Counted from the first letter of the stretch, positions 8,972 through 48,990 are shown. The stretch: DNA of 64,000 nucleotides from Gammaproteobacteria bacterium (GCA_015487785.1 WFPC01000004.1:18336-82335), one strand, 5' to 3'. Notes: generated by a model from the sequence alone, not told the origin. Made by a program: numbers and translations.

Positions 8972-10030
8972 TCAGGCCTGTCGCAGGGCGTTGCCCAACG
9001 CCTCGAAATCCAGTGGCTTTGCTTGTTGGGGGTGATTCAGGGCCAGGGTCTGTTGCAGGGCCTCGCGGGCCGCTTGTTCGGGTTGCTGCAAGGGTAGCTT
9101 GCCGGTCAGCTCTTCGAGAAGGGATTTCAGCTCCTGGGCCAGCCTGGCCACCGGGGTGGGCAGGCTGCGGCTTTCCTGTAGGGCCTGGATACTGCGGTAT
9201 TCTTCCACACTGCGCAGATTGACGTTGAAACTCTGCAGTTCATTGCCGTCCAGGCTCAGCATCGCGGCCTGCTCGGTCACCTCCTGCAGGCTGCCGTTCT
9301 GGAAGGCATCGGCCAGTTCGGCCACCTGTTGCATGAATTGCTCGATGGCCTTGCGCTCGCCCTCGTCCAGTTGACCTTTCACCCGAATACGCATCTGTTG
9401 TGACAGGCTGGCTTCCTGGCCATTGGCCTGGAAACGGGTGTTGGCGTCGGCATAGTCCATGGCCGTGCGGGTCTGTTGCCACTGGCGGCTGAGTTCGATG
9501 GTCACGATGTCGCCGTCGCGGGTCTTCAGTTGCAGCGAGAGACTGTTTTCACTGCGGTATTGTTCCAGGCTGGCACTGCTGCGCTGGCTGCTCAACTCGT
9601 CTTGCAAGCGTTGCTGCAGGGTGTCGATGTCCTGTGTCACGACGTCGTTGAGCATCCCGGCACGGGCCAGGTCTTCGCGGCCACTGCGCAGACCACTGTC
9701 GATACTCCGGGCAAGCTGCTCCCGACCGGCCTGGCCGCTGCGCAGCAGTTGTTGAGCCATGGCCATGACCCGCCTGGCAGTGGCCTCGGGGCCATTGTCC
9801 ACGTTGTTATAGGGTGTACTTGGAGGGGGCGTGAGCTGGCCCAGGCGGCCGAGGTGTTCGCCGATGCGGCGGGCGAGGAACTCGCGTGCCTGTTCGGGAC
9901 GAATCTGGTTGAGTATCACGGGCTGGGCGTTTGCTGGACGCACGCTGCCGGGTCTTGCCCAGGGGCTGGGAAAGTCCGTGGCTAGGTTGGGCGCAAGACT
10001 CGTTGCCGCGAGACTGGTGGTGCTGTTCAT
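8972..10030 (-). CDS. Hypothetical protein, DUF5610-like
   Basis: PEATARR, LQLKTRDGDIVTIEL, VKGQLDEGERKAIEQFMQQVAELADAF recalled as typical of this family; preceded by a sigma28-like promoter. Confidence 0.65.
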   Translation of the reverse strand: MNSTTSLAATSLAPNLATDFPSPWARPGSVRPANAQPVILNQIRPEQAREFLARRIGEHLGRLGQLTPPPSTPYNNVDNGPEATARRVMAMAQQLLRSGQAGREQLARSIDSGLRSGREDLARAGMLNDVVTQDIDTLQQRLQDELSSQRSSASLEQYRSENSLSLQLKTRDGDIVTIELSRQWQQTRTAMDYADANTRFQANGQEASLSQQMRIRVKGQLDEGERKAIEQFMQQVAELADAFQNGSLQEVTEQAAMLSLDGNELQSFNVNLRSVEEYRSIQALQESRSLPTPVARLAQELKSLLEELTGKLPLQQPEQAAREALQQTLALNHPQQAKPLDFEALGNALRQA

Positions 10031-10637: not shown

Positions 10638-11627
10638 TCAGTGGCCAGCCGGGGTGGCCCCCAGCACCAGCTCCAGGTTGATGCTGAACGACGGGCTGGG
10701 CCGGAAGCCCTGGCTGCGTTGCCACAGCATCAGGGGCACGATATCGAGGAAAATCCAGTCCTTATACAGCATCTTGCGAAAATAAATGTGGGCCGTGTAG
10801 CGGCTGGTGTGGAGTCGGGGGCGGTTTTCGCCCTCGGCGCTGAGCTGGTAGGCCAGGTAGCGCCCGGCACCGAGTTGCTGGAATACGGTGAGATATTGAC
10901 TCAGTTCGAAGGTGTCGAGGCGCTGGCGCCAGGTGACGTGACTGCTGGCGCGAAACAGATGTTGTTCACCCAGCGGATGCTCCAGCTCCAGGCGGGTGGT
11001 CTCGCCCAGTCTGGTACTGGAATACCAGAAGATCATCTGTGACAGGCGTAGCTGCCAGTGCCCCCGTTGCATTTGATGGCGGGCCTTGAGGCGGGTGACG
11101 ACTTCGGGACGGCGGGTCAGGCGCAGGCCGGCGCTGGCGCGCACGTTCCAGCGGGTCGACTGGCGCAGCAGGTATTGCAGGCTGGAGGTGATGGCGGTTT
11201 CGCCCTCGCTGCGTTGCGGCAAGACGTTGCTCTGGTCGATATCCTTTTCCTTGTCGGCCTCCTGTTGCAGGGAATTGCTCTCGATCACCAGCGACAGGCG
11301 TTCGTTGGTGCGTGGCAGGTCCAGCTTGACATGGGTCTTGAGAGTACTGGCAGGGCGGCTGCCGTAAACCAGGGTGTTGCTGTTGTAGAAACGCAGCTGG
11401 GTGCGATTGGTACGTTCGATCTCGCGGTTGGCACCGAAAAAACGATCGATGCTGTCGGACAACATCACGATGCCCGTGGAGAGCCTGTCGCGGGTTTGTT
11501 CGGCCAGGCGCAGGGATTGCTGCAACAGGTCGGGAGAGCTTGTCGGTGTGTCACTGGGTGTTTCCGTGGCGCCCAGCGGGACGCTGGAGCAGATGAGGCA
11601 CAGGCCCAACAGTGGACTAAGGCGCAT
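10638..11627 (-). CDS. Hypothetical exported protein, probable outer-membrane beta-barrel
   Basis: Signal peptide MRLSPLLGLCLICSSVPLGA; SIDRFFG motif; alternating aromatic/basic beta strands. Confidence 0.65.
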   Translation of the reverse strand: MRLSPLLGLCLICSSVPLGATETPSDTPTSSPDLLQQSLRLAEQTRDRLSTGIVMLSDSIDRFFGANREIERTNRTQLRFYNSNTLVYGSRPASTLKTHVKLDLPRTNERLSLVIESNSLQQEADKEKDIDQSNVLPQRSEGETAITSSLQYLLRQSTRWNVRASAGLRLTRRPEVVTRLKARHQMQRGHWQLRLSQMIFWYSSTRLGETTRLELEHPLGEQHLFRASSHVTWRQRLDTFELSQYLTVFQQLGAGRYLAYQLSAEGENRPRLHTSRYTAHIYFRKMLYKDWIFLDIVPLMLWQRSQGFRPSPSFSINLELVLGATPAGH

Positions 11628-12546
11628 CGTCCCATAGCCAGGCAGCACCGCGCACGCCGCTGGCATCGCCGTGTCGCGGGGGAACCAGGTGGGTGTCCAC
11701 CCGATCGGAGAAGATATAGTCTTGCCACAGGCGGGGGACGTTGTGATACCAGCGAGACACCTGGGACAGCCCGCCGCCCAGCACGATGACCTCCGGGTCG
11801 AGGATGTTGATTACATGGGCCAGGCCGCGGGCCAGGCGATGCTCGTAGCGTTGCAGGGTCTGTTCGCAGGCCACGTCGCCCGCCGCGGCGGCGGCGACGA
11901 TCTGGCGGCTGTCCAGGCTGTCGCCGGTGACGGCGCGGTGTTCGGCGGCCAGCCCCGGGCCGGAGAGATAGGTTTCCAGGCAGCCGTGGCGACCACAGTA
12001 GCAGGCTGGGCCAGGGAGTTCGTGTGCGTCGGGCCAGGGCAGGGGATTGTGGCCCCATTCGCCGGCGATGGCATTGACGCCGGTGAGCAGGCGGCCGTTG
12101 GCCACGATACCGGCGCCGGTGCCGGTGCCGATGATCACCCCGAACACCAGTGAGGCCCCCGCCGCGGCACCATCGGTGGCCTCCGACAGGGCGAAGCAAT
12201 TGGCATCATTGGCCAGGCGTACCGGTCGTTGCAGGCGATCTTCCAGGTCTTCGCGCAGGGGACGGTCATTGAGCCAGGTGGAATTGGCGTTCTTGATACG
12301 CCCGGTCTGCCGCGAGAGGGCGCCAGGGGTGCCTATGCCCACGCTGGCGCGGCAGTGGAGCTGGGCTTCGGCTTCGCGTACCAGGCGGTGGATGCAGTCC
12401 AGGGTGGCGTGGTAGTCGTTTCGGGGCGTGGCGACCCGGCGTTGCAGGCAGGTCCGGCCCTGGGCATCGAGCACGATGATTTCGGTCTTGGTGCCGCCCA
12501 GGTCGATGCCGATGCGGAACCGGGAGTGGTGTTTTGACGTGTTCAT
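11617..12546 (-). CDS. mak: ROK-family sugar kinase (fructokinase/Mak-like)
   Basis: IGIDLGGTK, ANDANCFALSE, GTGTGAG, GEWGH...CYCG..GCLE, IVLGGGLS. Confidence 0.88.
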   Translation of the reverse strand: MNTSKHHSRFRIGIDLGGTKTEIIVLDAQGRTCLQRRVATPRNDYHATLDCIHRLVREAEAQLHCRASVGIGTPGALSRQTGRIKNANSTWLNDRPLREDLEDRLQRPVRLANDANCFALSEATDGAAAGASLVFGVIIGTGTGAGIVANGRLLTGVNAIAGEWGHNPLPWPDAHELPGPACYCGRHGCLETYLSGPGLAAEHRAVTGDSLDSRQIVAAAAAGDVACEQTLQRYEHRLARGLAHVINILDPEVIVLGGGLSQVSRWYHNVPRLWQDYIFSDRVDTHLVPPRHGDASGVRGAAWLWDDAP

Positions 12547-12710: not shown

Positions 12711-13175
12711 GTGCGCAGAGGTGTTCTCTTTTTTCTATTGATGATGCTGGCGTGCGGGCCGACGATGGCCAAGCCGGCCTCGCCCCTGTTGCTCGATGTC
12801 CGCCTGCAGGGCCCCTGGCTGGCGGGCGAGGTGGTGGGGGTGGAGGTGCAGGTGGCCAGTCGCCTCGATCTGGATGACGTGGAGTTGCGTCTGGTGGCCG
12901 AGGATGGCGTGCAGCTGCTCGATGGCTCTGCCGTCTGGCGGGGCGCACTGGTTGTGGGTGAGCCGCGGGTGTCGCGCTTTCAGGCGCGGGTTCCCGTGAA
13001 CGGTGGCGGGCGGCTGCGGGTGGAGCTGGTCACCGGGCACGATGGCCAGCCTCGTTACCTGGCCCGCCGGATCGTGCCGTTGCCGGAGGGACGGGGCAAG
13101 CCCGGTCCGGAAACGGTGCGCGGCCGCTGGATCGAGCGTCAGGGTCGCGGCGTGAGGGAATATCGCCTGCCATGA
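12711..13175 (+). CDS. Small exported beta-rich hypothetical protein (module 1 partner)
   Basis: GGAGAG RBS, signal peptide ending TMA-KPASPL, C-terminus GRGVREYRLP; paralogous to 15162..15632. Confidence 0.75.
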   Translation: MRRGVLFFLLMMLACGPTMAKPASPLLLDVRLQGPWLAGEVVGVEVQVASRLDLDDVELRLVAEDGVQLLDGSAVWRGALVVGEPRVSRFQARVPVNGGGRLRVELVTGHDGQPRYLARRIVPLPEGRGKPGPETVRGRWIERQGRGVREYRLP

Positions 13176-15067
13176 ACTTGCGTTTTCTGCTGTTGTTGCC
13201 GATTCTGGGGCTCAGCGCCTGTATCGACGAAACCCTGCCCCGTGGTGACGATCCCAATCCGCCGCAATCGCAGGAGACACCCGTGGCCGAGGGGGTGTCC
13301 ATAGCCCCCGAGCGGGAGCGGCTCACCCTGTGGCGTCTGGACGAGCCCGTGGGCCTGGCGGTGACCGTGTACGATGGCCAGGGCAAGGCCCTGGAGCCCA
13401 CGCCAGAACTCACTTGGTTGTCCAGTGACGAGTCGGTGGTGCGAGTGGATGCCTTGGGGCGGCTGGTGGCCGTGGCCGAGGGGGAAGCGGTGGTGACGGT
13501 CAGCACCAAGGGCGTCAGCCGTCGTATCACGGTGGTGGTGGACACCTCGGTGAGCGAGATTGGCGGCGTGGTGAGCTACCAGGACAGGCGCTACGACGAG
13601 CGCGGCTTTCTGTCGCTCACCGCATACAATCCCCTGCGTTATGCCGCCTACGACATCCTCGACGCGGACGACGAGTCGCTGGTGGCCAGCGGCTATACCG
13701 ATGCCCAGGGGCGCTACCGCTTTACCGGCTCGCCTGGCGGTCGTTACCGCATACGGTTGTTGAGCAGAAGCGACCCGGCCGGAGGACATGAGGTGGAGGT
13801 CACGGATCTGGCCGGTGATCTCTACGCGGTGAGTCTCGGCCTGGATCCGGCCGCGCCCGATATCCGCATTCCCCTTGCCAGCGGCCTGGCCGGGGTGTTC
13901 AACATCTTCGACGTGATGCTCACCGGCATGGAGTTCTTCGCCGAACTCGGCGAGGCCAGCCTGCCCGATCTCAAGGTATTCTGGGCCCGGGGCAATAGCC
14001 TGGGCACCTATTATTGCACCGGCTTCGATGCCACCAATTGTCCCGGTGGTGCCGGTGTCTACGTGTACGACGAGACGGGGTATGGTGGCGATACCGATGA
14101 GTTCGACGACGACGTGTTGTGGCACGAATTCGGTCATTTCATCGTTGATCGCCTGTCGGCCGACGACTCCGAGGGCGGTTGCCATCTGCTGGAGAGCCCA
14201 GATCTGGATTTGCGCCTGGCCTGGAGCGAAGGCTGGGGTGATTTCCTGCCCACGGCCATCAAGCGTTGGCTGGCCGCCGATGCGGCGCGTCGGGCGCGCC
14301 TGTCGCAGAGTACGGACAAGCCGCTTACTCTCTATGTGGACACCGCCGGCGACCAGGCCCGTATCAGCGCCGACATGAACGACGCCAGCTCACGCTATTG
14401 GTATGCCAGCAACGAGGTGGCCGTGGCGCGCATTCTCTGGCGCCTGAGTGATGCCTTTGGCATGGACAAAGTATGGACGGTGATGACGGATTATTTTCCC
14501 AGCCTGCCCACGCCCACCAATCTGGAGGGGTTCTGGGACGGCTGGCTGGCCCTGCACGGCGCCGGTGGCGAGACCGCGCAGCGCGGCCGGCAGATATTGG
14601 CCGAGCAGCATGTGTACTACCAGCCCGACGGCCTGGAGCCCAACGACGACCAGCCTGCCAGTCAAGCCTATGCGCTGGACGGCACGGGCGGGTTGTTGCA
14701 CCTGTATCGCGAAGACGGAGTCGTTGATCGCGATGTCATCGCCTTTTCGGTAGTGGCCGGGCGACGCTACCTGGTGGAGACCCGTGATCTCATCAATGGT
14801 GCCGATACCTTTCTAAGGATACGCGATGCCGCCGGGGTGACCATTGCCAGCAACGACGATGTGGACGGCAGGAGCTATTACCGCTACGACGGCACCTGTG
14901 GCGAGATCCGTGCCCGCAACGATGCCACCTCCCTGGCTTCGAGGGTGGAATTCACCGCTACCAGCAGCGGCACCTACCAGGCCGTGGTCAGCACCACGCC
15001 GGATCCCGATCCCTATCCCGAGGCCGGCCGCTATGGCAGTTATCGCCTGGTGGTGGAAGAGCAATAA
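13172..15067 (+). CDS. Lipoprotein: Ig-like (Big_2) + putative zinc metallopeptidase + PPC-like domain
   Basis: Lipobox LSAC; TWLSSDESVVRVD (Big_2); DDDVLWHEFGH...AWSEGWG (HExxH + distal E); GADTFLRI..IASNDD (PPC-like). Confidence 0.8.
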   Translation: MNLRFLLLLPILGLSACIDETLPRGDDPNPPQSQETPVAEGVSIAPERERLTLWRLDEPVGLAVTVYDGQGKALEPTPELTWLSSDESVVRVDALGRLVAVAEGEAVVTVSTKGVSRRITVVVDTSVSEIGGVVSYQDRRYDERGFLSLTAYNPLRYAAYDILDADDESLVASGYTDAQGRYRFTGSPGGRYRIRLLSRSDPAGGHEVEVTDLAGDLYAVSLGLDPAAPDIRIPLASGLAGVFNIFDVMLTGMEFFAELGEASLPDLKVFWARGNSLGTYYCTGFDATNCPGGAGVYVYDETGYGGDTDEFDDDVLWHEFGHFIVDRLSADDSEGGCHLLESPDLDLRLAWSEGWGDFLPTAIKRWLAADAARRARLSQSTDKPLTLYVDTAGDQARISADMNDASSRYWYASNEVAVARILWRLSDAFGMDKVWTVMTDYFPSLPTPTNLEGFWDGWLALHGAGGETAQRGRQILAEQHVYYQPDGLEPNDDQPASQAYALDGTGGLLHLYREDGVVDRDVIAFSVVAGRRYLVETRDLINGADTFLRIRDAAGVTIASNDDVDGRSYYRYDGTCGEIRARNDATSLASRVEFTATSSGTYQAVVSTTPDPDPYPEAGRYGSYRLVVEEQ

Positions 15068-15161
15068 CAAAAGGCTTGGCAAGCGTCGCCGCAGGGGGTA
15101 GAAGAGGAGGATGGGGACGAGGGGCGGCGTTGCCGCTTCGCGCAGAGCACCGGGGGAGATC

Positions 15162-15632
15162 ATGTCACCTGAAAATCGCATCATCTGCGGGATATTGTTG
15201 GGGCTGGTGCTCGTCGCGACGGCCTGGGCCAAGCCCATGATGCCCCTGAGTCTGGTACTGGAGGCCAGGCAGGTGCCGGTGGCGGGGAACATCCTGGACC
15301 TGGTAGTGCGGGTTCGCTCCCACCTGGACACCGACCGACTGGAATTGCGCGTGAGCTTGCCGCCCGGTGCCCAGTTGCTGGCCGGCGAGCAGGAACAGAC
15401 GCTGAGCGTGCGGGCCCACCAGTGGCAGAGGGTGGACCTGCGTATTCGCCTGCCCGATCCCCTGGAGGGGTACATCGACGCGGTGGCACGCATTCGCCAG
15501 GGCGAGGAGACCCGCTATACTGCCGGCGCCCGTTTCGCCCTGGAACCCACCCGCAGCAAGCAGCACATCGCGCCGCCGGCGCTTCGGCGCCAGCGCGATG
15601 GCCAGGGCATCAGGGAGTTCGTGCTTCCTTGA
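15162..15632 (+). CDS. Small exported beta-rich hypothetical protein (module 2 partner)
   Basis: GGAG RBS, signal peptide ending AWA-KPMMPL, C-terminus GQGIREFVLP. Confidence 0.75.
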   Translation: MSPENRIICGILLGLVLVATAWAKPMMPLSLVLEARQVPVAGNILDLVVRVRSHLDTDRLELRVSLPPGAQLLAGEQEQTLSVRAHQWQRVDLRIRLPDPLEGYIDAVARIRQGEETRYTAGARFALEPTRSKQHIAPPALRRQRDGQGIREFVLP

Positions 15633-17233
15633 AATCGCGCTGGATCGTCCTGCTGCCCTGCCTGTGCGCGTTGATGGCCTGTGACGGGCGCCGGAACAGC
15701 CTCGTCGGCCAGATCCACTACCAGGACTGGCTCTACGATCAGACCGGCCTGACACGGCGCCAAGCCAAGCCGGTGCGCTTTGCCCTGGTGGATCTGCTGG
15801 ATGCTGACGGTCGGCGCCTGGCCAGCACCCATACCGACGGTGCCGGCCGTTACCGCTTCGAGGGCGACATTCCCTTGCGTTTTTCCCTGCGCGTGCTCGC
15901 CCGCCAGGATGGCAGTATGGCTCCGGCGGTGACGGTGCAGGATCTGCGCGGCGATGTCTATGCGGTGACCAGGAACGTGGACCGCTTCGAGCCGGTGATC
16001 GACATCGCCCTGCCGGCGGAGGCCTCGGCGGCGTTCAACCTGTTCGATGTCTACCAGGCTGCCGGGGCCTATTTCAGCGAGCTGAGCGGTCGCCCGCCAC
16101 AGCCCCTGATGGTGTTCTGGCAGCCGGGCAACGTCGATGGCACCTATTATTGCTCCGCCTTTGCCAACCCTGGCTGCGTGGGCGGGGCGGGCATCTACGT
16201 GCTCAGCGAGCGCAACGGTGAGAGCAGCCTGTATGACGATCGCGACGAATACGATGACGACGTTCTGCTGCATGAATACGGTCATTTCCTGTTCGCGCGC
16301 TATTCTCGCGACGACTCCCCCGGTGGCTGCCACAGCCTGGAGGCCAACGACCAGGACCTCACCCTCGCCTGGAGCGAGGGCTGGGGCAATTTTTTTTCCG
16401 CTGCGGTCAAATCGTGGATGCGTGCACGGGGAGACTCGGCCCTGTCCAGCAGTCTGCCCGCCAGTCACTACATCGATACCGTGCAATCCGCCAGCGGCAG
16501 CGACATCGGCATTTCCTTCGACTTCGCCGATCCCGAGCGCAATCTCGTCCAGGCCTCCGACAGATACTTCTACGCCGGCAGCGAAGTGGCCGTGGCCAAT
16601 GTGCTGTGGCGCCTGTTTGAACAGCAAAACACTCTGGCCGGGTTGTGGCGCATCTTCACCGCCCCGGCATGGCGGGAACGCAGCGCGCCCATCACCGTAG
16701 AGGCGCTGTGGGACGGACTGCGCGATCCCTACCTCGGGCACGGTTACAGCACGGCGGCCGTACTGCCGATATTCCAGGCGCGTGGACTGGACTACACGGA
16801 GGACGGCTACGAGCCGGACGACAGCGCCTCATCCGACAGACTGTTGCAGTTGCAACAAATTGAGTCGCATACCCTGTACAGGGAGGCCGGCGCCGATCGT
16901 GACATATTTGCCATTCCGGTGAGCGCCAACGTGCGTTACCGGGTAGCCACCGGCAAGCTCAGGAATGGAGCCGATACCCAGATGTGGTTGTACGAAAATC
17001 CGGGCCTGGAACGGGTGCTGGCCACAAACGACAACCTTGGCAATGACAACATGCTGGTGGACGAACGCTGCGGCAGGCGTCTGGCCACCACCGATGCCCT
17101 GGCCTCGGCAATTGAATTCACAGCCTTTCAGGATGGTCTGTATTACATCGCGGTGGCCACCAGCACACAGCCGTTCGGCTTTACCGGACGCTATGGCGGC
17201 TACCAGATCAGTCTCACCCGACTGGGCCCCTGA
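15629..17233 (+). CDS. Lipoprotein: putative zinc metallopeptidase + PPC-like domain (no Big_2)
   Basis: TTG start overlapping upstream TGA; lipobox LMAC; DDDVLLHEYGH, DDSPGGCH, AWSEGWG, GADTQMWLY..ATNDN. Confidence 0.8.
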   Translation: MKSRWIVLLPCLCALMACDGRRNSLVGQIHYQDWLYDQTGLTRRQAKPVRFALVDLLDADGRRLASTHTDGAGRYRFEGDIPLRFSLRVLARQDGSMAPAVTVQDLRGDVYAVTRNVDRFEPVIDIALPAEASAAFNLFDVYQAAGAYFSELSGRPPQPLMVFWQPGNVDGTYYCSAFANPGCVGGAGIYVLSERNGESSLYDDRDEYDDDVLLHEYGHFLFARYSRDDSPGGCHSLEANDQDLTLAWSEGWGNFFSAAVKSWMRARGDSALSSSLPASHYIDTVQSASGSDIGISFDFADPERNLVQASDRYFYAGSEVAVANVLWRLFEQQNTLAGLWRIFTAPAWRERSAPITVEALWDGLRDPYLGHGYSTAAVLPIFQARGLDYTEDGYEPDDSASSDRLLQLQQIESHTLYREAGADRDIFAIPVSANVRYRVATGKLRNGADTQMWLYENPGLERVLATNDNLGNDNMLVDERCGRRLATTDALASAIEFTAFQDGLYYIAVATSTQPFGFTGRYGGYQISLTRLGP

Positions 17234-17325: not shown

Positions 17326-18243
17326 ATGATGCAAAAACTGACAACGACAATGAGCGGGTTCGACTGGGCTGGCAAGGTGCCGGTACTGGTCAATCTGCTT
17401 CTGGTGCTGGCTCTGGCCCAGGTCCTGGCCAGCCTGAGCTGGCGTCTGCTGCCATTGCCGGAGCCGCTTGTGCCCCCGCCCGAGGTGGTGCAGGGCAGCG
17501 CGCCGGCAGCGGCGCCGGTGCCCGGTGATCTGGGTGGACAAATCGCCGCCTGGCACCTGTTCGGCCGGGTGCAAAAGGAAAAGCGCGTGGCGCCTGCGGC
17601 ACCTCCACCGAGAGCCGAGGCGGCGCCGGATACCAGCCTGCGGCTGAGTCTGAGGGGCGTGTTCGTGTCCGATCAGGCCGACGATGCCTGGGTCATCGTC
17701 GCCGACCACCGTGGCAAGGAGGAGACCTACCGCCCCGGTGACACCCTGCCCGGTGGCGCCACCTTGCTGGAGGTCTACGCCGACCGCATCATCCTGCAGC
17801 ACAATGGCCGGCGCGAGACATTGCGCCTGCCCGCCAGCAACATGGATAATACATCCACCAAGTCACGCGCTGGCGCGCGCAGCCGCCCGCGTGGTCCGGC
17901 GCAGTCGGTCACCACGCTGTCCAGCGAGGCCAGTCAGGTATTGAGCGAGTACCGGCAGAAACTGCTCACCGATCCGCAGTCGGTGATGAGCGCGGTGCGC
18001 GCCGAACCCTATCGCAAGGGCGGGCGTCTGATGGGTTACCGGGTATTCCCCGGCGCCGATCGCAAACTGATGCAGAAGATTGGCCTGCGTCCGGGCGACG
18101 TGGTGACCCGTATCAATGGCATCGTGCTGGACAGTCCGCTCAAGGGGCTGGAAGTGATGCAGAAGATCAGCGATGCCAGCGAGATCACGGTGGACGTGTT
18201 GCGCGATGGTGTCAACCAGACCTTCGTGGTGCCGATTAACTAG
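17326..18243 (+). CDS. gspC: Type II secretion protein C with PDZ domain
   Basis: Single TM, WHLFG, APDTSLRLSLRG, NGRRETLRL, GLRPGDVVTRING. Confidence 0.9.
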   Translation: MMQKLTTTMSGFDWAGKVPVLVNLLLVLALAQVLASLSWRLLPLPEPLVPPPEVVQGSAPAAAPVPGDLGGQIAAWHLFGRVQKEKRVAPAAPPPRAEAAPDTSLRLSLRGVFVSDQADDAWVIVADHRGKEETYRPGDTLPGGATLLEVYADRIILQHNGRRETLRLPASNMDNTSTKSRAGARSRPRGPAQSVTTLSSEASQVLSEYRQKLLTDPQSVMSAVRAEPYRKGGRLMGYRVFPGADRKLMQKIGLRPGDVVTRINGIVLDSPLKGLEVMQKISDASEITVDVLRDGVNQTFVVPIN

Positions 18244-23046: not shown

Positions 23047-23169
23047 CACTCAATGTAGCTAATACGAAATGATTAGCGGCATATCCCGGCCGGCAAGATG
23101 GCGTCGCCGCGGCCAGGATGGAAAGGATGCCCGCCGAATGCACGGTGCTGTCTGTTGGGAGAAACGATC

Positions 23170-24771: not shown

Positions 24772-24778
24772 ATGTGCC

Positions 24779-25528: not shown

Positions 25529-25588
25529 CTCAAACGACTCCTTATCGATGCCATGTTGTCAGGCTATTGCAGCACGGGCGGTTTTTTT

Positions 25589-25604
25589 TGGCAACACGAT
25601 TGCG
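25589..25604 (+). promoter_or_regulatory. Possible sigma54 -24/-12 site upstream of gspG
   Basis: TGGCAACACGATTGCG: GG-N10-GC spacing. Confidence 0.35.
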
Positions 25605-25695
25605 GCGTTCTTTGTTATCATGCCGGGGCTACGGAATGGTTCTTGCCTTTCATCGGCAACGGGGGTTCAATCTTCATCTACGGGACACGACACGC

Positions 25696-26145
25696 ATGAT
25701 CGCAATACAACCGAGACGCGCCCACGCCGGTTTCACCCTGATCGAGGTCATGGTGGTCATCGTCATTCTCGGCATCCTCGCCGCCATCGTGGTGCCACGG
25801 GTGATGGACCGACCAGACACCGCACGCATCACCAAGGCCAAGCAGGACATTCGTACCCTGGAAAGCGCGCTCAATCTCTACAAACTGGACAATTTCAGCT
25901 ATCCCAGCACCGACCAGGGGCTGGAAGCCCTGGTGCGCAAACCCTCGGGCACGCCGGAACCGCGCAACTGGAAAGAGGGTGGTTATATCGACCGCTTGCC
26001 CAAGGATCCCTGGGGTAACGACTATCAATACCTCAATCCCGGTGTGCACGGCAGCATCGATATCTATAGTCTGGGCGCCGATGGCCAGGAAGGCGGTGAA
26101 GGCATCAATGCCGACATCGGCAACTGGAACCTGAACGAGGGTTGA
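25696..26145 (+). CDS. gspG: Major pseudopilin
   Basis: [40 protein letters not shown]. Confidence 0.96.
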
Positions 26146-26187
26146 TGTTGGTGAGGTCTCCGGGCTAGGGTCCGGACGGGTTTTCCC

Positions 26188-26706
26188 ATGGACAGCAGCG
26201 GGCAGCGCGGTTTCACCCTGCTGGAGTTGCTTGTGGTGATATTGATCATCGGTCTGATCAGCAGCTTCGCCGTGCTGAGCGTGGGCGGGCGGGACGATGC
26301 CCTGCGAGAACAGAGCCGGCGCCTGGTGGCGCTGATTCGTCTGGCCGGCGAAGAGGCCATCATCAATGCCACCGACCTGGCCCTGCGTCTGCGCCGGCAA
26401 GGCTATGCCTTCGCCCAACTGGCACCCGATGGTCGCCTGCAGCCCTTGCAGGACGAAGACGGGGGCAGCCTGCGCCCACGCACCCTGCCCGAGGACATTC
26501 ATATCCGTTCGGCACGCATCAATGGCCTGGAAGCCGACCTGGAGGCTACCGAGGATGCCCAGGGAGGTGCCGTGATCTTGCTGTATGCCAGTGGCGAGAT
26601 GACTCCCTTCGAGATCGAACTGCAAGCTGCCGACGGTGGTCGTTATCGTCTGCGCGGTGAATTCAACGGCGTGGTGAGGGAACCCGAGCGTGTATCGGCG
26701 CGTTGA
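26188..26706 (+). CDS. gspH: Minor pseudopilin H
   Basis: GFTLLELLVV, ASGEMTPF; gene order. Confidence 0.9.
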   Translation: MDSSGQRGFTLLELLVVILIIGLISSFAVLSVGGRDDALREQSRRLVALIRLAGEEAIINATDLALRLRRQGYAFAQLAPDGRLQPLQDEDGGSLRPRTLPEDIHIRSARINGLEADLEATEDAQGGAVILLYASGEMTPFEIELQAADGGRYRLRGEFNGVVREPERVSAR

Positions 26707-27073
26707 CAGGCAGGCGGGCTTCACCCTGATGGAGGTGTTGGTGGCCCTGGCGGTGCTGGCCATCGCCCTGGCGGCGATCATCCAGAGCGTGGCTGCCAGC
26801 AACAACAATACCGCCTACCTGCGCGATCGCACCCTGGCCCACTGGGTGGCCATGAACCGCATCGCCGAGGTGCAGGTTCTGCACCAGTGGCCCGCCCTGG
26901 GTAGTGAGACGGGTAGTGAGGAAATGGCCAATCACGAATGGTTTTGGCGGCTGGATGTGAGCGATGCCGGCATCGAGGGCGTGCGCCGGCTGGAGGTCAG
27001 CGTGCGCCGCGAACGCGACGACCCGCAAGCACTGGCGCATCTCACCGCCCTGGTGGGACGCCCGCAACCATGA
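26690..27073 (+). CDS. gspI: Minor pseudopilin I
   Basis: GFTLMEVLVAL, LRDRTLAHWVAMN. Confidence 0.92.
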   Translation: MYRRVDRQAGFTLMEVLVALAVLAIALAAIIQSVAASNNNTAYLRDRTLAHWVAMNRIAEVQVLHQWPALGSETGSEEMANHEWFWRLDVSDAGIEGVRRLEVSVRRERDDPQALAHLTALVGRPQP

Positions 27074-27717
27074 AGTCGCCACCCAGTCAAGAGGGTTTCA
27101 CCCTGCTGGAGTTGCTGGTGGCGCTGTCCATTTTCGCCATTCTTTCGGCCATGGCCTATGGCGGCTTGCGGGTGGTGCTGGACAGCAAGCAGCGTAACGA
27201 ACAACATGCACAGCGCCTGATCGAGTTGCAGACGGCGCTGAGTTTTCTCCAGCGTGACATCGAGCAGGCGGTGGGGCGCAGCGTGCGCGATGGCTTCGGC
27301 GACGTGCAACCGGCCTGGCGTAGCGGCTTCGGCGCCCGCCTGTTCAGCCTCACCCGGGCCGGCTGGCGCAATGGCCCGGGTCTGCGCCGCAGCAACCTGC
27401 AACGGGTGAGCTATCGTTTCCAGGACGGCCGGCTGGCGCGCCAGTTCTGGCCGGTGCTGGATCGGGCCGACGACACCGAGCCACCGGAGCGGGAATTGCT
27501 GACGGGTATCGAGCAGGTGGAGCTGCGTTATCTCGATGCCCAGGGCCAGTGGCGCGACCAATGGCCGCCGCTGAATCTGGACCGGGCCGACCCGGCCCTG
27601 TTGCCGCGCGCGGTGGAGATCAGCCTCACCCTGGAGGACATGGGCAAGGTGCGCCGGGTGATGCGGGTGGCGCCGGGTGAGGCGGCGGTGGTGCAGACCT
27701 TCGCGGAGGCTTCGTGA
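27070..27717 (+). CDS. gspJ: Minor pseudopilin J
   Basis: GFTLLELLVAL, TRAGWRN, RSNLQRVSY, LPRAVEI. Confidence 0.92.
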   Translation: MKSPPSQEGFTLLELLVALSIFAILSAMAYGGLRVVLDSKQRNEQHAQRLIELQTALSFLQRDIEQAVGRSVRDGFGDVQPAWRSGFGARLFSLTRAGWRNGPGLRRSNLQRVSYRFQDGRLARQFWPVLDRADDTEPPERELLTGIEQVELRYLDAQGQWRDQWPPLNLDRADPALLPRAVEISLTLEDMGKVRRVMRVAPGEAAVVQTFAEAS

Positions 27718-28736
27718 AACGGCCCCCCGCAACACATCGTGGTGTAGCCCTGATCACCGCCATGCTGGTGACCGCGCTGGCTGCCACCACCGCGGTGGCC
27801 TTGAGTTCGCGCCAGCAGCTCGATGTGCGGCGAACCGCCAATGTCATGGCCGCCGACCAGGCTTATCTGTATGGCCTGGGCATCGAGACCGTGGCCATGG
27901 AATTGCTCGGTGCCTACAGTCGCGAATACGATTACGACGATCCCGCGGTGATATATCAGTCCTACACCTTTCCGGTGGACGGTGGCCTGGTGGAAGGTGC
28001 CCTGCAGGACATGAATGCCCGCTTCAACATCAACAACCTGGTCAAGACCGGTGGTGATGGCGAACAGCCGCCCCAGGTCAACAGCGTGCAGCGGGAGCGT
28101 TTTCGCCGTCTACTCGAACGGGTACTCAACCTCCTGGGTGACGATCCGGCGCGGGCGGAAGGCCTCACCAACGCGGTGATCGACTGGTTGGACGGGGATC
28201 AGGATGTCAGTTTCCCCGGTGGGGCCGAGGATGGCGACTACCTGGCCCAGAATCCGCCCTATCGCAGTGCCAACCGCTCCATGAGCAGTGCCAGTGAGTT
28301 GCTGCTGGTGCAGGGTTTCGACCGCACCCTGCTGTATGGCAAGACGGTGGCGGGCGAAACCGTACCGGGTTTGTTAAAGTATGTCACGGCTCTGCCCGAT
28401 GTCAGTGCACCGATCAATGTCAACACCGCCGATGCAGACCTGTTGCTGGCCTTGTCGCCCTATCTCGACGCGGCGCGCCTGGAACAGGTGCTCGCCGGCC
28501 GGCCGTTCGAGGATATCGGCGCTTTTCGCAACCACCAGGCATTCGACGACTTGAAACAACAGGACCGCCAGAAACTGCAGCAGGATCTCCAGGGGCTCAC
28601 CGTTGCCAGCCGCTTCTTTTTGGTCAAGGCCAATGTGCGCGTGGGTCGCAGCCGGTTGCGTTTCAACAGTCTGCTGCAGCGCAACGGCAGCCGCGTGGCC
28701 GTGGTCTCCCGGGCGCAGGGAACCGACGGCCTATGA
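27714..28736 (+). CDS. gspK: Minor pseudopilin K
   Basis: RGVALITAML, RFNINNL, IDWLDGD, GAEDGDY, INVNTA. Confidence 0.92.
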   Translation: MKRPPATHRGVALITAMLVTALAATTAVALSSRQQLDVRRTANVMAADQAYLYGLGIETVAMELLGAYSREYDYDDPAVIYQSYTFPVDGGLVEGALQDMNARFNINNLVKTGGDGEQPPQVNSVQRERFRRLLERVLNLLGDDPARAEGLTNAVIDWLDGDQDVSFPGGAEDGDYLAQNPPYRSANRSMSSASELLLVQGFDRTLLYGKTVAGETVPGLLKYVTALPDVSAPINVNTADADLLLALSPYLDAARLEQVLAGRPFEDIGAFRNHQAFDDLKQQDRQKLQQDLQGLTVASRFFLVKANVRVGRSRLRFNSLLQRNGSRVAVVSRAQGTDGL

Positions 28737-29944
28737 GGCGTGAGCGCATCGTGTTGCGGTTGCCGGCGGATGCCGGGGCGCCGGTGCAGTGGCGCCGTTT
28801 CGACGAAACGGCGTCGGTCATCGTGGGCCAGGGCAGCCTGGAGGAACTGGCCGCGGACATCGGCAATACCCCGGTGCAGGCTCTGATACCCGGTGAGCAG
28901 GTTTTTGTCACCCGGGTGAATATTCCCACCCAGAACCGCCAACGCCTGCGCAAGGCCATCCCCTTTGCCCTGGAAGACCAGTTGCTAGACGAGGTGGAGA
29001 CCCTGCATTTTGCCCTGGGCCAGCGTCGTGGCGACAGTATCGAAGTGGCGGTGGTGGCGCGCCGGCTGCTGGACGGCTGGCTCGAGCGCCTGCGCCAGGC
29101 TGGCCTGGTGGTGGAGCGCCTGTTGCCCGATGTCTACGCGCTGGCGCCGCAGGCCGACTGCTGGGTGGCACTGTGGGAAGATACGCGCCTGTTGCTGCGC
29201 CCGTCGCGCGCGGCGCCGCTGGTGCTGGACAACGACAGCCTTGGCGAGTTGTTGCCCCTGGTGCTGGACGAGGCCGGTGACGACCGACCCGAGCGGATTT
29301 GCCTGTGGGATGCCCGTGATGGTGCCGTGGGCAGTCTTCCGCTGGACGGTGTGGAGCTGAAACGCCGGAGCAGCGAAGGCCTGTTGCAATGCCTGTCCGT
29401 GGAGGGTCTGCCCGCCGATGCTATCGACTTGTTGCAAGGTGACTACAGTCGCCGCGAGCAGCTGGGCAAGTTGTGGCGCCCCTGGCGCCTCACCGCGGTG
29501 CTGGCGCTGGTGGTGTTCGGTCTGCAGGTGGCGGCCACCGCCTACGACAACAGCCGTCTGCGCCAGCAGAGCCAGGCCCTGAGGGCGCAGGTGGAAACGG
29601 TCTACCGGCAGGCTTTTCCCGAGGCCCGCAAGGTGGTCAATCCCCGGGTGCAGATGCAGCGCAAGCTGGACGAACTGCGAGCCGGCGGTGATGGTCAGGG
29701 AATGCTGGAGCTGCTGGCGCGCAGCGGCAAGGTGTTGCGCAACAAGCGTGGCCTGGTGCTGCGCAGTATTCGCTACAAGCAGGGGGAGCTGGATCTCGAG
29801 GTGGAAGTGGCCAGCCTGCAGCAACTGGACGAACTGAAACAGCAACTGACCCGCGAGGCTGGCATGCAAGTGGATATTCAGTCTGCTGCCGCCAAGGGCA
29901 GCAAGGTGCGCGGTCGCCTGCGGCTCAAGGGTGATTCATCGTGA
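28733..29944 (+). CDS. gspL: Type II secretion protein L
   Basis: IPFALEDQL, LLPD, DLLQGDY, single TM, NPRVQMQ. Confidence 0.92.
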   Translation: MRRERIVLRLPADAGAPVQWRRFDETASVIVGQGSLEELAADIGNTPVQALIPGEQVFVTRVNIPTQNRQRLRKAIPFALEDQLLDEVETLHFALGQRRGDSIEVAVVARRLLDGWLERLRQAGLVVERLLPDVYALAPQADCWVALWEDTRLLLRPSRAAPLVLDNDSLGELLPLVLDEAGDDRPERICLWDARDGAVGSLPLDGVELKRRSSEGLLQCLSVEGLPADAIDLLQGDYSRREQLGKLWRPWRLTAVLALVVFGLQVAATAYDNSRLRQQSQALRAQVETVYRQAFPEARKVVNPRVQMQRKLDELRAGGDGQGMLELLARSGKVLRNKRGLVLRSIRYKQGELDLEVEVASLQQLDELKQQLTREAGMQVDIQSAAAKGSKVRGRLRLKGDSS

Positions 29945-30459
29945 AGGCTCTGGTGCAACAGGTACTCAGCTACTGGATGCAGTTGCGTCCGCGGGAGCAG
30001 GCGTTGCTCGGCGTGGCGGGCCTGGTATTGTTGCTGGCCGTGTTGTTCATGCTGGTGTGGGAACCGGTGATGCAGGAGCACCGGCGACTGCAACAGGGCC
30101 TGGTTCAGCAGCAAGAATTGCTGGCCTGGATGCAGCAGTCGGCGGCGGAAGTCAGACGCCTGCAGGCGGGCGCTGGCCAGAGCCGGCAGGCACGGGCGCG
30201 TGGTGGCCAGTCCTTGCTGGCCCTGATCGACAGCACCGCCAAGCGTGCGCGTCTGGGGGCGGCGCTGAAGCGAGTGGAGCCCGATGGCTCGGGGCGGGTG
30301 CGTGTGTGGTTGGAGCAGGCCGCCTTCGACGACCTGGTGCGCTGGCTGGGACAATTGCAGCAGCGCTATGGCGTGCGGGTGGACAGCATTGCCGTCGACC
30401 GGGACGAAAAACCCGGCCGGGTGGCGGCGCGGGTGGTCTTCGCGGGGAGCACTCCATGA
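29941..30459 (+). CDS. gspM: Type II secretion protein M
   Basis: LRPREQ + TM + VWEP, FDDLVRWL. Confidence 0.9.
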   Translation: MKALVQQVLSYWMQLRPREQALLGVAGLVLLLAVLFMLVWEPVMQEHRRLQQGLVQQQELLAWMQQSAAEVRRLQAGAGQSRQARARGGQSLLALIDSTAKRARLGAALKRVEPDGSGRVRVWLEQAAFDDLVRWLGQLQQRYGVRVDSIAVDRDEKPGRVAARVVFAGSTP

Positions 30460-31244
30460 GTCGGGCCGCGCGTCGTTATCTGCTGCTGGGGCTGCTGGCT
30501 TACCTGGTGTTCCTGGCGCAGCAAATGCCGGCCTCGCTGGCGTTGTCCTGGTTGCAATCCCGCTTTGGGGATACGTTTGTCGCCTACGGGGTTTCCGGTA
30601 CCCTCTGGCAGGGGCGGATCCAGCGCCTGGACGTGGCCGGGCGCAGCCTGCGCGATGTCGATTGGCGCTGGCTGCCGGGCGAGGCGCTGCTGGGGCGGAT
30701 CGGCGTGGCCCTGTATGCCCGCGTGGATGATGGCTATGTGCAGGCCGAACTGCTGCGCGGGCTCGACGGCGACCTGTTGTTGCGCGATGTGGACGGACGC
30801 CTGGGCATGCCCAAGTTACTGCGCTTGGTGCGGGTTCCCGGCCTCAAGCTCGGGGGCGAGCTGTTGTTGCATCTCGAGCGCCTGGAGCTGGACGATGACG
30901 GCAGGCCGGTGGCTGCGCGGGGGCGTCTGGCTTGGCTGCAGGCGGTCACTCTGTTTCCTCAACGCCTGTCGCTGGGTGACTTGCAGGCCGTGCTGAGCGA
31001 AACAGACCAGGGGTTGCGCGCCCAGCTCAGCGATGCCGGTGGCCCCCTGGTCTTGGACGGCGAGTTGTTGCTCAGTGATGCCGGTCGCTACACACTCGAA
31101 TTGCAACTGGCCGCCCGCCAGCGCAATACCCCTCTGGCGCGCGCCCTGCGCATGCTGGGGCGGCCCGACGCCAAGGGGAGGGTCAGGCTGAAACAAAGCG
31201 GCAGCCTGGCCGAGCTGGGGTTGGCGCCGCCGGGCGCGGGCTAA
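30456..31244 (+). CDS. gspN: Type II secretion protein N
   Basis: N-terminal TM, PAS, SGTLWQG, DAGGPL; ATG overlaps gspM stop. Confidence 0.85.
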   Translation: MSRAARRYLLLGLLAYLVFLAQQMPASLALSWLQSRFGDTFVAYGVSGTLWQGRIQRLDVAGRSLRDVDWRWLPGEALLGRIGVALYARVDDGYVQAELLRGLDGDLLLRDVDGRLGMPKLLRLVRVPGLKLGGELLLHLERLELDDDGRPVAARGRLAWLQAVTLFPQRLSLGDLQAVLSETDQGLRAQLSDAGGPLVLDGELLLSDAGRYTLELQLAARQRNTPLARALRMLGRPDAKGRVRLKQSGSLAELGLAPPGAG

Positions 31245-46595: not shown

Positions 46596-46649
46596 GTTGA
46601 GGGCTCCTGCAAAACGCGCTGGGAACAAACAGGACGAATAGACGGGCTG

Positions 46650-46679
46650 AAGAAAGCCGGCCGGCAAAATGCCAGCCGG
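46650..46679 (-). terminator. Hairpin with short pyrimidine tail between soxA and soxB
   Basis: Minus strand CCGGCTGGC-ATTTT-GCCGGCCGG-CTTTCTT. Confidence 0.5.
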
Positions 46680-46690
46680 AATGCGAAAGA

Positions 46691-47524: not shown

Positions 47525-47586
47525 CGAGTTTCTCCTTAATCGAATCGCTGTTGGCGCCAAAGATCCGCAGATCCGTGACTCGCGTG

Positions 47587-47904: not shown

Positions 47905-47949
47905 GGGTATTTCCTTCGAAAACGTAAAGGATGCACATATCGGCGGTGT

Positions 47950-48417: not shown

Positions 48418-48445
48418 GCTCGTACTCCTGCAAAAACTATGTGAA

Positions 48446-48823: not shown

Positions 48824-48974
48824 GCCCACCTCCTGATTGGTCACGGATAATCGACACCGGGGCGCAGTGTGGCGTCCGGCGGGTTTGTTCAGTCTAGAAG
48901 CAAGCGATCGCGAAGCCTTCCTGGCGACCAGCATATCGAGTGCATTGCCTGGCGAGCGCGTTGCACGGCGGGTT

Positions 48975-48990
48975 TGCAAACCTTGTGCCG
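48975..48990 (-). promoter_or_regulatory. Candidate sigma54 promoter for soxXYZAB
   Basis: Minus strand CGGCAC-AAGGT-TTGCA (GG-N10-GC). Confidence 0.5.

What the first reader, a model, noticed from the sequence alone, without database searches (positions are those of the whole stretch)
12711..17233. Tandem-duplicated small-partner plus HExxH lipoprotein module at the head of the T2SS cluster (best candidate new system)
Seen: an A1-B1-A2-B2 arrangement. The A proteins (~155 aa, signal peptide) share a mature start KPxxPLxL and a C-terminus RxGxG(V/I)RE(Y/F)xLP. Each A stop overlaps the B start (ATGA, TTGA), indicating translational coupling. The B proteins are lipoproteins (LSAC, LMAC) sharing FN(I/L)FDV, GTYYC, DE(F/Y)DDDVLxHE(F/Y)GH, DDSxGGCH, LAWSEGWG, a PPC-like tail and GRYGxY; only B1 has a Big_2 stalk. 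gspC follows on the same strand within about 100 bp. Known: HExxH plus a distal E is a gluzincin-type zinc site, and T2SSs export surface lipoproteins such as pullulanase and SslE. Inference: two diverged surface metalloproteases, each with a dedicated trans-acting propeptide, chaperone or inhibitor, serving as cargo of this T2SS. I do not recognise this as a characterised system.
Basis: partly seen in the sequence, partly recalled or inferred. Interest (0 to 1): 0.75.

Follow-up and report, generated by a model that had tools for sequence, protein, structure and literature searches.

The report
Lipoprotein zinc protease with small partner
Two neighbouring gene pairs each encode a membrane-anchored, thermolysin-like zinc protease and a small secreted partner predicted to sit over its active site, and this uncharacterised pairing recurs in several bacterial phyla.

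Summary
A1 (12711-13175), B1 (13172-15067), A2 (15162-15632) and B2 (15629-17233) exist as described, with ATGA and TTGA overlaps, and gspC starts 92 nt downstream.

- **B:** a lipoprotein with a thermolysin fold (Z 20.3), an M36-like HExxH...EGWG motif, a C-terminal PPC domain and no propeptide.
- **A:** a signal-peptide protein with an Ig-like sandwich. The first mature residue is an invariant Lys followed by Pro, and the tail is a conserved R..G..REY.LP.
- **A-B linkage:** A lies next to B in 30 of 39 close B loci from Gammaproteobacteria, Gallionella, Nitrospirota and Deltaproteobacteria. The order is either A-B or B-A. Two natural A-B fusions exist.
- **Predicted complex:** the A2-B2 model scores 0.83 against a best control of 0.01. 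Its interface includes the zinc-site residues H215, E216 and E250.

Best reading (0.55): A is a trans-acting prodomain or inhibitor that keeps B latent in the periplasm.

- **"One dedicated A per B" does not hold.** Most relatives have one A for two Bs.
- **Linkage to gsp is confined to one family.** T2SS cargo status therefore rests on synteny alone.

An ESM Atlas lead to mycolysin N and M domains (Pfam 38.1) could not be tested here.

The parts
12711..13175 (+). A1: small secreted partner, 154 aa. Signal peptide ends ...TMA; mature N-terminus KPASP (12771-12785); C-terminal tail GVREYRLP (13149-13172).
   Evidence: AF2 model: pLDDT 86.1, seven-strand sandwich plus C-terminal hairpin.
13172..15067 (+). 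B1: lipoprotein zinc protease, 631 aa. Lipobox LSAC (13211-13222), Big_2-like stalk, HEFGH (14123-14137), SEGWG (14225-14239), PPC-like C-terminal domain.
   Evidence: Belongs to the family-specific B1-type clade.
15162..15632 (+). A2: small secreted partner, 156 aa. Mature N-terminus KPMMP (15231-15245); tail GIREFVLP (15606-15629).
15629..17233 (+). B2: lipoprotein zinc protease, 534 aa. Lipobox LMAC (15671-15682), thermolysin-fold domain at residues about 27-388, HEYGH (16271-16285), SEGWG with E250 (16373-16387), PPC or collagen-binding-like domain at about 392-533.
17326..18243 (+). gspC (T2SSC plus PDZ), 92 nt after the B2 stop. No terminator-like site lies in between.
   Evidence: It follows the last A or B gene in all 12 same-family loci whose contig continues.
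18270..22987 (+). gspD (18270-20249), gspE (20253-21770), gspF (21773-22987).
25567..31244 (+). gspG, H, I, J, K, L, M, N: the second half of the T2SS. It is separated from gspF by an MCP gene (23098-24771, +) and a pentapeptide-repeat gene (24779-25528, -).
11617..12531 (-). ROK-family sugar kinase, a divergent neighbour that marks the upstream edge of the locus in relatives.

Best explanation
Each pair is a two-gene protease module. B is exported by Sec, lipidated at Cys+1, and folds into a thermolysin-type zinc endopeptidase. Its zinc ligands are H, H of HExxH and the E of SEGWG, and it carries a C-terminal PPC domain. B has no propeptide of its own. A is exported by Sec with an ordinary signal peptide and is made in step with B through overlapping stop and start codons. 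A binds B 1:1 in the periplasm. In this reading its C-terminal tail adds a strand to the N-terminal beta domain of B, and the A body, together with the invariant Lys-Pro N-terminus, covers the catalytic cleft. A would thus act as a separately encoded prodomain or inhibitor, possibly also a folding aid. It would keep the protease latent until B reaches its destination, where A is shed or degraded. In this bacterial family the destination is probably the cell surface by way of the adjacent T2SS. Shown here: gene structure, fold, motifs, conserved adjacency and natural fusions. Predicted only: the binding. Inferred: inhibition or chaperoning, release of A, and T2SS dependence.
For: (1) Fold. The B2 model (pLDDT 84.2, pTM 0.85) aligns to thermolysin 4m65_A at Z 20.3, rmsd 3.3, 266 residues, model residues 27-388 to chain residues 6-316. 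It aligns to LasB at Z 17.9 and to an M36 protease (7qp3_A) at Z 14.8. Mature B2 therefore starts almost at the thermolysin mature N-terminus, with no prodomain and no FTP or PepSY hit.
(2) Active site. H215, E216, H219, H235 and E250 are invariant in 24 B sequences and in 14 more distant ones. The motif aligns with the M36 HEYTH..GC..LE..EGWGDF.
(3) Linkage. A is adjacent on the same strand in 30 of 39 loci with B E<1e-60. It is also adjacent in 4 of 5 further, more distant B paralogue loci. Stop and start overlap or lie within 25 nt at 11 of the 12 A/B junctions with an unambiguous start read.
(4) Co-inheritance. Five sub-clades outside the family recur in both the B tree and the A tree.
(5) Fusions. 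The L103 ORF has a signal peptide, an A-like domain (iE 4.7e-12), a linker and then a B-like protease. P0266 has three A-like domains followed by a B-like domain.
(6) Predicted complex of B2(20-534) with A2(24-156). The score is 0.83 and the best of 3 controls is 0.01. That mark was reached by 58 of 80 solved complexes and 2 of 110 mismatched pairs; these counts hold only roughly here because my own alignments were used. The runs agree in at least 89% of contacts and the partner pLDDT is at least 82. The interface includes B residues 212, 215-216, 234-239 and 250, and A residues 24-28 and 148-155.
(7) Seven of the 11 most conserved mature A positions (K24, P25, P28, R145, E152, F153, L155) lie in that interface.
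(8) Precedents. Protealysin and its inhibitor emfourin share one operon and form a 1:1 complex at the active site (PMC9505478, passages read). The LasB propeptide acts as an intramolecular chaperone and is secreted (titles only, seen in the reference list of PMC4404142).
Against: - No biochemical evidence exists.
- The complex is a model. The output does not say which A residues touch the zinc site, and the lowest-error contacts put the A tail on B strand 104-116 rather than in the cleft.
- Across all 133 mature A positions, interface residues are no more conserved than the rest (Mann-Whitney p 0.40).
- Five of the 39 close B loci lack any A. Four are one Nitrospirota sub-clade that keeps an intact active site, so B can apparently exist without A.
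- Of 26 more distant B-like loci, 20 have no A.
- The A core is a generic Ig-like, MG or CARDB-type sandwich with no discriminating structural match (best Z 12.2). It does not resemble FTP or PepSY prodomains.
- Solved thermolysin-family enzyme-prodomain and enzyme-inhibitor complexes exist (3nqz and 7skl appear), so part of the high score might reflect learned cleft binding.
Confidence: 0.55

Rival explanations
1. A is a permanent, non-inhibitory subunit of the active enzyme. It could be a substrate-recruiting or positioning domain supplied in trans, analogous to the Ig-like accessory domains fused to many secreted proteases.
For: A is an Ig-like sandwich of the DUF11, CARDB or MG kind, a fold that usually serves as an accessory domain. 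Fused forms carry one to three such domains N-terminal to the protease. The best-defined contacts are a strand addition to the N-terminal beta domain of B, which is an anchoring device.
Against: The predicted interface includes H215, E216, E250 and the loop before the active-site helix. That would block substrate access. The first mature residue is invariant (K in 50 of 50 sequences), which is hard to explain for a mere accessory domain.
Confidence: 0.2
2. A is a substrate or precursor processed by B. For example, B might trim its N-terminus or release its conserved C-terminal peptide.
For: The conserved termini are flanked by a variable, basic linker of about 25 residues. A contacts the active site in the model.
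Against: The folded core of A is as conserved as the tail. The tail is modelled as a strand on the beta domain of B, not in the cleft. The fusions lack the tail altogether.
Confidence: 0.08
3. A is a secretion-specific factor that pilots or targets lipoprotein B to the adjacent T2SS.
For: In this family the A/B genes sit directly upstream of gspC in 12 of 12 loci where the contig continues.
Against: Outside this family, A-B pairs are never next to gsp genes. Only 5 of the 39 close loci have gsp genes in the flank, and all 5 belong to this family. The five non-family carriers tested do have a GspL-like gene, but elsewhere in the genome. A is therefore tied to B, not to gsp.
Confidence: 0.07
4. 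There is no physical relationship. A is an unrelated secreted protein that merely shares an operon with B.
For: None beyond the lack of experiments.
Against: Adjacency is kept across several phyla and in both gene orders, and fusions and a high-scoring complex model exist.
Confidence: 0.05

Closest known systems
Protealysin-emfourin operon of Serratia proteamaculans (thermolysin-family protease plus a co-operonic protein inhibitor)
   Same: A thermolysin-fold protease and a small protein encoded in the same operon. The small protein binds 1:1 at the active-site region (PMC9505478, passages read).
   Different: That paper describes protealysin as an intracellular protease. Here both proteins have export signals and B is a lipoprotein. 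A matched no Pfam family. No emfourin entry appears among the structural matches shown for A. I had no emfourin sequence, so homology was not tested directly.
Propeptides of M4 and M36 proteases (FTP and PepSY domains), such as the LasB propeptide
   Same: A thermolysin-fold enzyme needs or uses a separate polypeptide segment that chaperones and inhibits it. LasB is a T2SS substrate whose propeptide is also secreted (titles only, seen; the remaining detail is recalled).
   Different: Here the partner is a separate gene with its own signal peptide. It has an Ig-like fold rather than FTP or PepSY. It can be encoded downstream of the protease.
Fungalysin family M36
   Same: The active-site signature HExxH ... 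GC ... LE ... EGWG(D/N)F aligns with 7qp3_A. Fold Z is 14.8. B1 has a partial Pfam PF02128 hit of 23.9 bits.
   Different: Only 68 of 368 profile positions match. B2 is below the cut-off at 17.0 bits. The fold is closer to M4 (Z 20.3). There is no FTP propeptide. B has a lipoprotein anchor and a PPC domain.
Mycolysin (MEROPS M5; Pfam 38.1 Mycolysin_N PF27334 and Mycolysin_M PF27283)
   Same: This is an ESM Atlas lead only. A2 lies near a cluster auto-named 'Mycolysin N-terminal domain-containing protein' (score 0.93). B2 lies near a cluster in which 14% of members carry Mycolysin_M (score 0.92). Mycolysin belongs to clan MA(E) (table passage in PMC3268031). If the lead holds, A-B is a split mycolysin-like enzyme.
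   Different: Not verified. The models are absent from the Pfam copy available here. No named mycolysin sequence could be obtained. The B profile found no catalytic-domain match in 300 other Actinomycetota genomes.
Serralysin inhibitors Inh and AprI, and TIMPs (recalled, not tested)
   Same: These are small exported proteins whose free N-terminus enters the zinc site. The invariant first mature residue of A (Lys, then Pro) and its presence in the predicted interface suggest a comparable use of the N-terminus.
   Different: The target clan differs (metzincins) and so does the inhibitor fold. No evidence here places the A N-terminus at the zinc.
T2SS-exported lipoproteins
   Same: A lipobox protein encoded beside a gsp cluster.
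   Different: There is no sequence relationship. The linkage is seen in one family only, and export was not tested.

Membership tests
Peptidase M4 (thermolysin) | Two-lobed thermolysin fold with the HExxH helix | tested here: met
   Z 20.3, rmsd 3.3, 266 residues aligned to 4m65_A; LasB Z 17.9. Foldseek E about 1e-6.
Peptidase M4 (thermolysin) | Match to Pfam Peptidase_M4 or Peptidase_M4_C | tested here: not met
   No such hit at E<=1 for B1 or B2. No M4 chain appears in the PDB profile search at E<=1.
Peptidase M4 (thermolysin) | Third zinc ligand Glu about 20 residues after HExxH in an NExxSD motif (motif recalled) | tested here: not met
   The conserved Glu (E250 of B2) lies 31 residues after H219, in LAWSEGWG.
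Peptidase M4 / M36 | N-terminal FTP or PepSY propeptide | tested here: not met
   No FTP or PepSY hit. B2 residue 27 aligns to thermolysin residue 6.
Peptidase M36 (fungalysin) | Pfam PF02128 at or above its cut-off | tested here: inconclusive
   B1 scores 23.9 bits against a cut-off of 23.3, but over profile positions 161-228 of 368 only. B2 scores 17.0 bits, below the cut-off.
Peptidase M36 (fungalysin) | HExxH ... EGW(S/G)D active-site signature | tested here: met
   Alignment of B2 residues 198-260 to 7qp3_A residues 168-224 (E 0.16, not significant on its own).
Mycolysin M5 (Pfam 38.1 Mycolysin_N / Mycolysin_M) | Match to PF27334 (A) and PF27283 (B) | not testable with these tools
   The models are not in the library. 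Only Atlas neighbour clusters carry them, in 17% and 14% of members. The B profile found no catalytic match in 300 other Actinomycetota genomes.
Emfourin-type inhibitor | Sequence or fold homology to emfourin | not tested
   No emfourin sequence was available. None appears among the rows shown, which does not exclude it.
PPC / collagen-binding domain | PPC fold at the C-terminus | tested here: met
   ColG CBD 5iku_A: Z 11.4, rmsd 2.5, 110 residues, for model residues 392-531. Also 5sv5_A, Z 10.0. Pfam PPC is below its cut-off (18.4 and 14.8 bits against 25.9).
Bacterial lipoprotein | Lipobox L-x-x-C at the end of a signal peptide | tested here: met
   LSAC (B1) and LMAC (B2) read directly from the sequence. 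The consensus of 24 homologues is L.AC. No predictor was run.
T2SS substrate | Export that depends on the Gsp machinery | not testable with these tools
   Only synteny is available: 12 of 12 continuing loci in this family and none outside it.

The most novel reading that the evidence does not exclude
A defines a new family of Ig-fold protein inhibitors, or trans-prodomains, of thermolysin-fold proteases. It would clamp onto the enzyme by donating its C-terminal strand to the protease beta domain, and plug the zinc site with its invariant free Lys-Pro N-terminus, much as TIMPs and the serralysin inhibitors use theirs. The resulting A-B latency module would be an ancient unit shared by Pseudomonadota, Nitrospirota, Myxococcota and, in fused form, Acidobacteriota. 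In one gammaproteobacterial family it would have become the dedicated, co-transcribed cargo of the T2SS.
Probability: 0.3. Interest if true: 0.7.

Novelty: new variant of a known kind. Interest (0 to 1): 0.55.

Why it matters
Thermolysin-fold proteases are normally kept latent, and helped to fold, by a covalently attached propeptide. A widespread natural version in which that role falls to a separately encoded, separately exported Ig-like protein would add a new family to the few known protein inhibitors of this clan. It would also give a clean two-component system for studying latency and folding. The A profile finds 351 clusters at E<=1e-10, all unnamed or annotated as hypothetical. In the window's family the module sits at the head of the T2SS operon. 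That position nominates a concrete, testable substrate for an otherwise uncharacterised secretion system in uncultured sulfur-cycle-type Gammaproteobacteria.

Tried and rejected
- **Family libraries.** NCBIfam gave nothing meaningful for A or B, or for seven distant or fused relatives. Pfam gave only sub-threshold accessory-domain hits for A and for the distant B-like proteins.
- **PDB by sequence.** The B profile hit only Big_2-type domains, plus 7qp3_A at E 0.62. The A profile hit nothing below E 0.08.
- **Fold searches for A.** They returned only generic Ig-like, MG or CARDB sandwiches, so the fold assigns no function.
- **A alignment against genome contigs.** The search for related loci with the 50-sequence A alignment failed for lack of a conserved stretch. 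I used the B alignment instead.
- **Word-indexed searches with the A profile.** These found few relatives: 5 proteins at similar length and, among longer proteins, only 2 DUF11 repeat proteins. They say little about fused forms.
- **Mycolysin lead.** PF27334 is not in the library. Cluster look-ups of 10 A relatives gave only 'hypothetical protein'. A scan of 301 Actinomycetota genomes with the B profile matched, apart from the seed genome, only non-catalytic profile positions. Literature searches for mycolysin and for Streptomyces cacaoi propeptide gave nothing usable.
- **Conservation against interface in A.** No overall difference (p 0.40).
- **B copies with and without A.** The strand 104-116 and the active site are kept in both groups, and only the C175..C183 loop is missing in the group without A. 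This is not informative.
- **GspL search in five non-family carriers.** All five have a match over the cut-off elsewhere in the genome. This neither supports nor excludes T2SS export there.
- **Earlier notes of this scan.** Nothing for this place or these sequences.
- **Prior description in print.** Searches for a separately encoded propeptide and for the emfourin literature found no description of this module. Only the held library was searched.


Full report
**1. What is there**

| Gene | Coordinates | Start | Length |
|---|---|---|---|
| A1 | 12711-13175 | GTG, 5 nt after GGAGAGG | 154 aa |
| B1 | 13172-15067 | ATG | 631 aa |
| A2 | 15162-15632 | ATG | 156 aa |
| B2 | 15629-17233 | TTG | 534 aa |

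- The A1 stop and B1 start overlap as ATGA. The A2 stop and B2 start overlap as TTGA.
- A1 and A2 are 28% identical, E 2e-9. B1 and B2 are 39% identical, E 8e-91.
- The genome holding the window (2.44 Mb, 63 contigs, 95% complete) has no further copy of A or B.

*Surroundings*
- Upstream lies a divergent ROK kinase gene.
- Downstream, 92 nt after the B2 stop and with no terminator-like site between, lie gspC, D, E and F.
- After an MCP gene and a pentapeptide-repeat gene come gspG to gspN. The T2SS is therefore complete and the A/B genes sit at its head.

**2. What B is**

- Pfam gives only weak hits. Peptidase_M36 around HExxH scores 23.9 bits for B1, just over the cut-off, but on 68 of 368 profile positions. 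It scores 17.0 bits for B2. CarboxypepD_reg, Big_2 (B1 only) and PPC are all below their cut-offs. NCBIfam gives nothing.
- The AlphaFold model of B2, built with 24 homologues, has pLDDT 84.2 and pTM 0.85.
- Structural matches:

| Match | Z | Notes |
|---|---|---|
| Thermolysin 4m65_A | 20.3 | rmsd 3.3, 266 residues; model 27-388 onto chain 6-316 |
| LasB | 17.9 | |
| M36 protease 7qp3_A | 14.8 | |
| ColG collagen-binding / PPC domain | 11.4 | B2 residues 392-531 |

- H215, E216, H219, H235 and E250 are invariant in 24 homologues and in 14 more distant ones.
- The stretch HEYGH..GGC..LE..SEGWGNF aligns with the M36 signature HEYTH..TGC..LE..GEGWGDF (E 0.16, so it is supportive only).
- The lipobox (LSAC, LMAC) is read from the sequence, and the family consensus is L.AC.
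- B is thus a lipoprotein gluzincin of clan MA(E). Its fold is closest to M4 and its motif closest to M36. It is a member of neither by the family models available here.
- B2 begins essentially at the thermolysin mature N-terminus, so it has no propeptide.

**3. What A is**

- A has an ordinary signal peptide followed by a core of about 105 residues. The core is modelled as a seven-strand Ig-like sandwich, pLDDT 86.1.
- After the core come a variable basic linker and a conserved tail.
- In a 50-sequence alignment the first mature residue is Lys in every sequence. Pro follows in at least 90%, and the Glu of the tail motif R..G..(I/V/L)RE(Y/F).L(P) is at least 90% conserved.
- Fold searches return only generic MG, CARDB and transglutaminase-type sandwiches, best Z 12.2.
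- No Pfam family reaches significance. The core is a distant relative of DUF11/CARDB repeats.
- A full HMMER scan of 1.84 billion representatives found 1321 proteins at E<=1e-3 and 351 at E<=1e-10. Most of the 150 listed are full-length at 150-175 aa. Of the ten looked up, three carry a name, in each case 'hypothetical protein', and seven carry none.

**4. Is A tied to B?**

*Within the window's own family*
- B is present in 14 of 15 other genomes of the family. It is present only weakly in 4 of 45 genomes from other families of the class.
- ORF-level reading shows at least one A in every locus with enough contig. The layout, however, varies:

| Layout | Loci |
|---|---|
| A-B-A-B | the window only |
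| A-B-B | L026 |
| B-A-B | L024, L028, L030, L034 |
| A-B | L025, L027, L031 |
| B-A, with no B after the A | L029, L032 |

- Junctions overlap or lie within 25 nt in 11 of the 12 with an unambiguous start.

*Across GTDB species genomes*
- The B alignment recovered 65 loci. Eight are the same family genomes as above.
- Results for the 39 loci with B E<1e-60:

| Outcome | Loci |
|---|---|
| A adjacent on the same strand | 30 |
| Unrecognised 157-aa secreted ORF in the A position (L066) | 1 |
| Cut by contig ends | 3 |
| No A (four are one Nitrospirota sub-clade) | 5 |

- Results for the 26 weaker B-like loci: 5 have B-A, 1 is a fusion and 20 have no A.
- Four of five further distant B paralogue loci also have a downstream A.
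- Carriers include Gammaproteobacteria MAGs, Saccharospirillum, Reinekea, Gallionella, Nitrospirota, Deltaproteobacteria and Myxococcota.
- Five sub-clades outside the family recur in both the A tree and the B tree.

*Natural fusions*
- One acidobacterial ORF (L103) reads signal peptide, A-like domain, about 100 residues of Pro/Ala-rich linker, B-like protease, CARDB.
- P0266 has three A-like domains before a B-like domain. Neither fusion has the A tail.

**5. Predicted complex**

- B2(20-534) with A2(24-156) scored 0.83. The three runs gave 0.79, 0.83 and 0.83, and the best of 3 controls was 0.01.
- That mark was reached by 58 of 80 solved complexes and 2 of 110 mismatched pairs. The counts hold only roughly here because my own alignments were used.
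- The runs agree in at least 89% of contacts, and the partner pLDDT is at least 82.
- On B the interface includes 104-116, 171-173, 198-206, 212, 215-216, 234-239, 250 and 283-319.
- On A it includes 24-28, several loops, and 142-155.
- The lowest-error pairs place A residues 148-154 as a strand beside B residues 104-116.
- The output does not show which part of A touches the zinc ligands.
- Seven of the 11 most conserved mature A positions lie in the interface. Over all positions, however, conservation does not differ (p 0.40).
- This is a model, not a measurement. Solved enzyme-prodomain and enzyme-inhibitor complexes of the thermolysin family exist (one search lists 3nqz and 7skl).

**6. 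Mechanism**

The best reading is that A is a separately encoded prodomain or inhibitor, and possibly also a folding aid. It would be made in step with B, bind it in the periplasm, occlude the cleft and be lost at the destination.

- This fits the absence of a propeptide in a fold that normally has one.
- It fits the fusions, which place A where a prodomain would be.
- It fits the predicted interface.
- It fits the emfourin-protealysin precedent (PMC9505478, passages read).
- The LasB precedent (propeptide as chaperone, propeptide secreted) I saw only as titles in a reference list. The rest is recalled.

The rival explanations are listed separately in the report.

**7. The T2SS link**

- In the window's family the last A or B gene is followed by gspC in all 12 loci whose contig continues.
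- The copy next to gspC is always of the B2 type. B1-type copies form a separate, family-specific clade of 14 with SH-aLRT 91. The two modules are therefore old paralogues, not a recent duplication.
- Outside the family no A-B locus has gsp genes in its flanks. The five carriers I tested do have a GspL-like gene, but elsewhere in the genome.
- Cargo status is plausible for this family and remains unproven.

**8. A lead that could change the filing**

- The ESM Atlas places A2 next to a cluster auto-named 'Mycolysin N-terminal domain-containing protein' (score 0.93).
- It places B2 next to a cluster in which 14% of members carry Pfam 38.1 Mycolysin_M (score 0.92).
- These models are not in the Pfam copy available here, and I could not obtain a named mycolysin.
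- The B profile found no catalytic-domain match in 300 other Actinomycetota genomes.
- If the lead is confirmed, A-B would be a split mycolysin-like (M5) protease, and the prodomain reading would gain support.

**9. Verdict**

- I rate it a new variant of a known kind, namely a protease with a trans prodomain or inhibitor.
- Interest 0.55.
- Supplementary files of papers were not needed and were not seen.

Noticed in passing
window 23098-25528: The T2SS cluster is split. gspCDEF and gspG-N are separated by an MCP gene (+) and a pentapeptide-repeat gene (-).
   Followed up: partly
window 46000-64000: G+C falls from about 0.62-0.66 to 0.55-0.60 in the last 18 kb of the window. This could be a region of different origin.
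   Followed up: no
window 10638-11666 (-) and 8972-10030 (-): A 342-aa ORF with an N-terminal hydrophobic stretch has no Pfam match. Next to it lies a 352-aa DUF5610 protein.
   Followed up: no
L063 2278-7260, L066 2253-7382, L069 2094-7349: In Saccharospirillum and Reinekea a giant lipoprotein of 1660-1750 aa lies immediately upstream of the A-B pair on the same strand.
   Followed up: no
L073, L074, L076, L078 (Nitrospirota): A B sub-clade without any A sits in a fixed context: rpoD, then a 242-aa zinc-ribbon-like ORF, then B, then a regulator. It lacks the C175..C183 loop of B2.
   Followed up: partly
L081 6543-9107 (Myxococcota): This B-like protease carries four or more EGF-type domains at its N-terminus and is followed by an A-like gene.
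   Followed up: no
B2 residue 19 (window 15683-15685) and L026 second B: B2 has Asp at position +2 after the lipobox Cys, and so does the second B of L026. Other copies do not. From recall, Asp+2 is the inner-membrane retention signal, also found in pullulanase.
   Followed up: no
P0130, P0160, P0161 and others: Giant proteins of 3000-4000 aa with 12-17 DUF11 or DUF7927 repeats match the core of the A profile strongly. The A core thus belongs to that repeat superfamily.
   Followed up: partly
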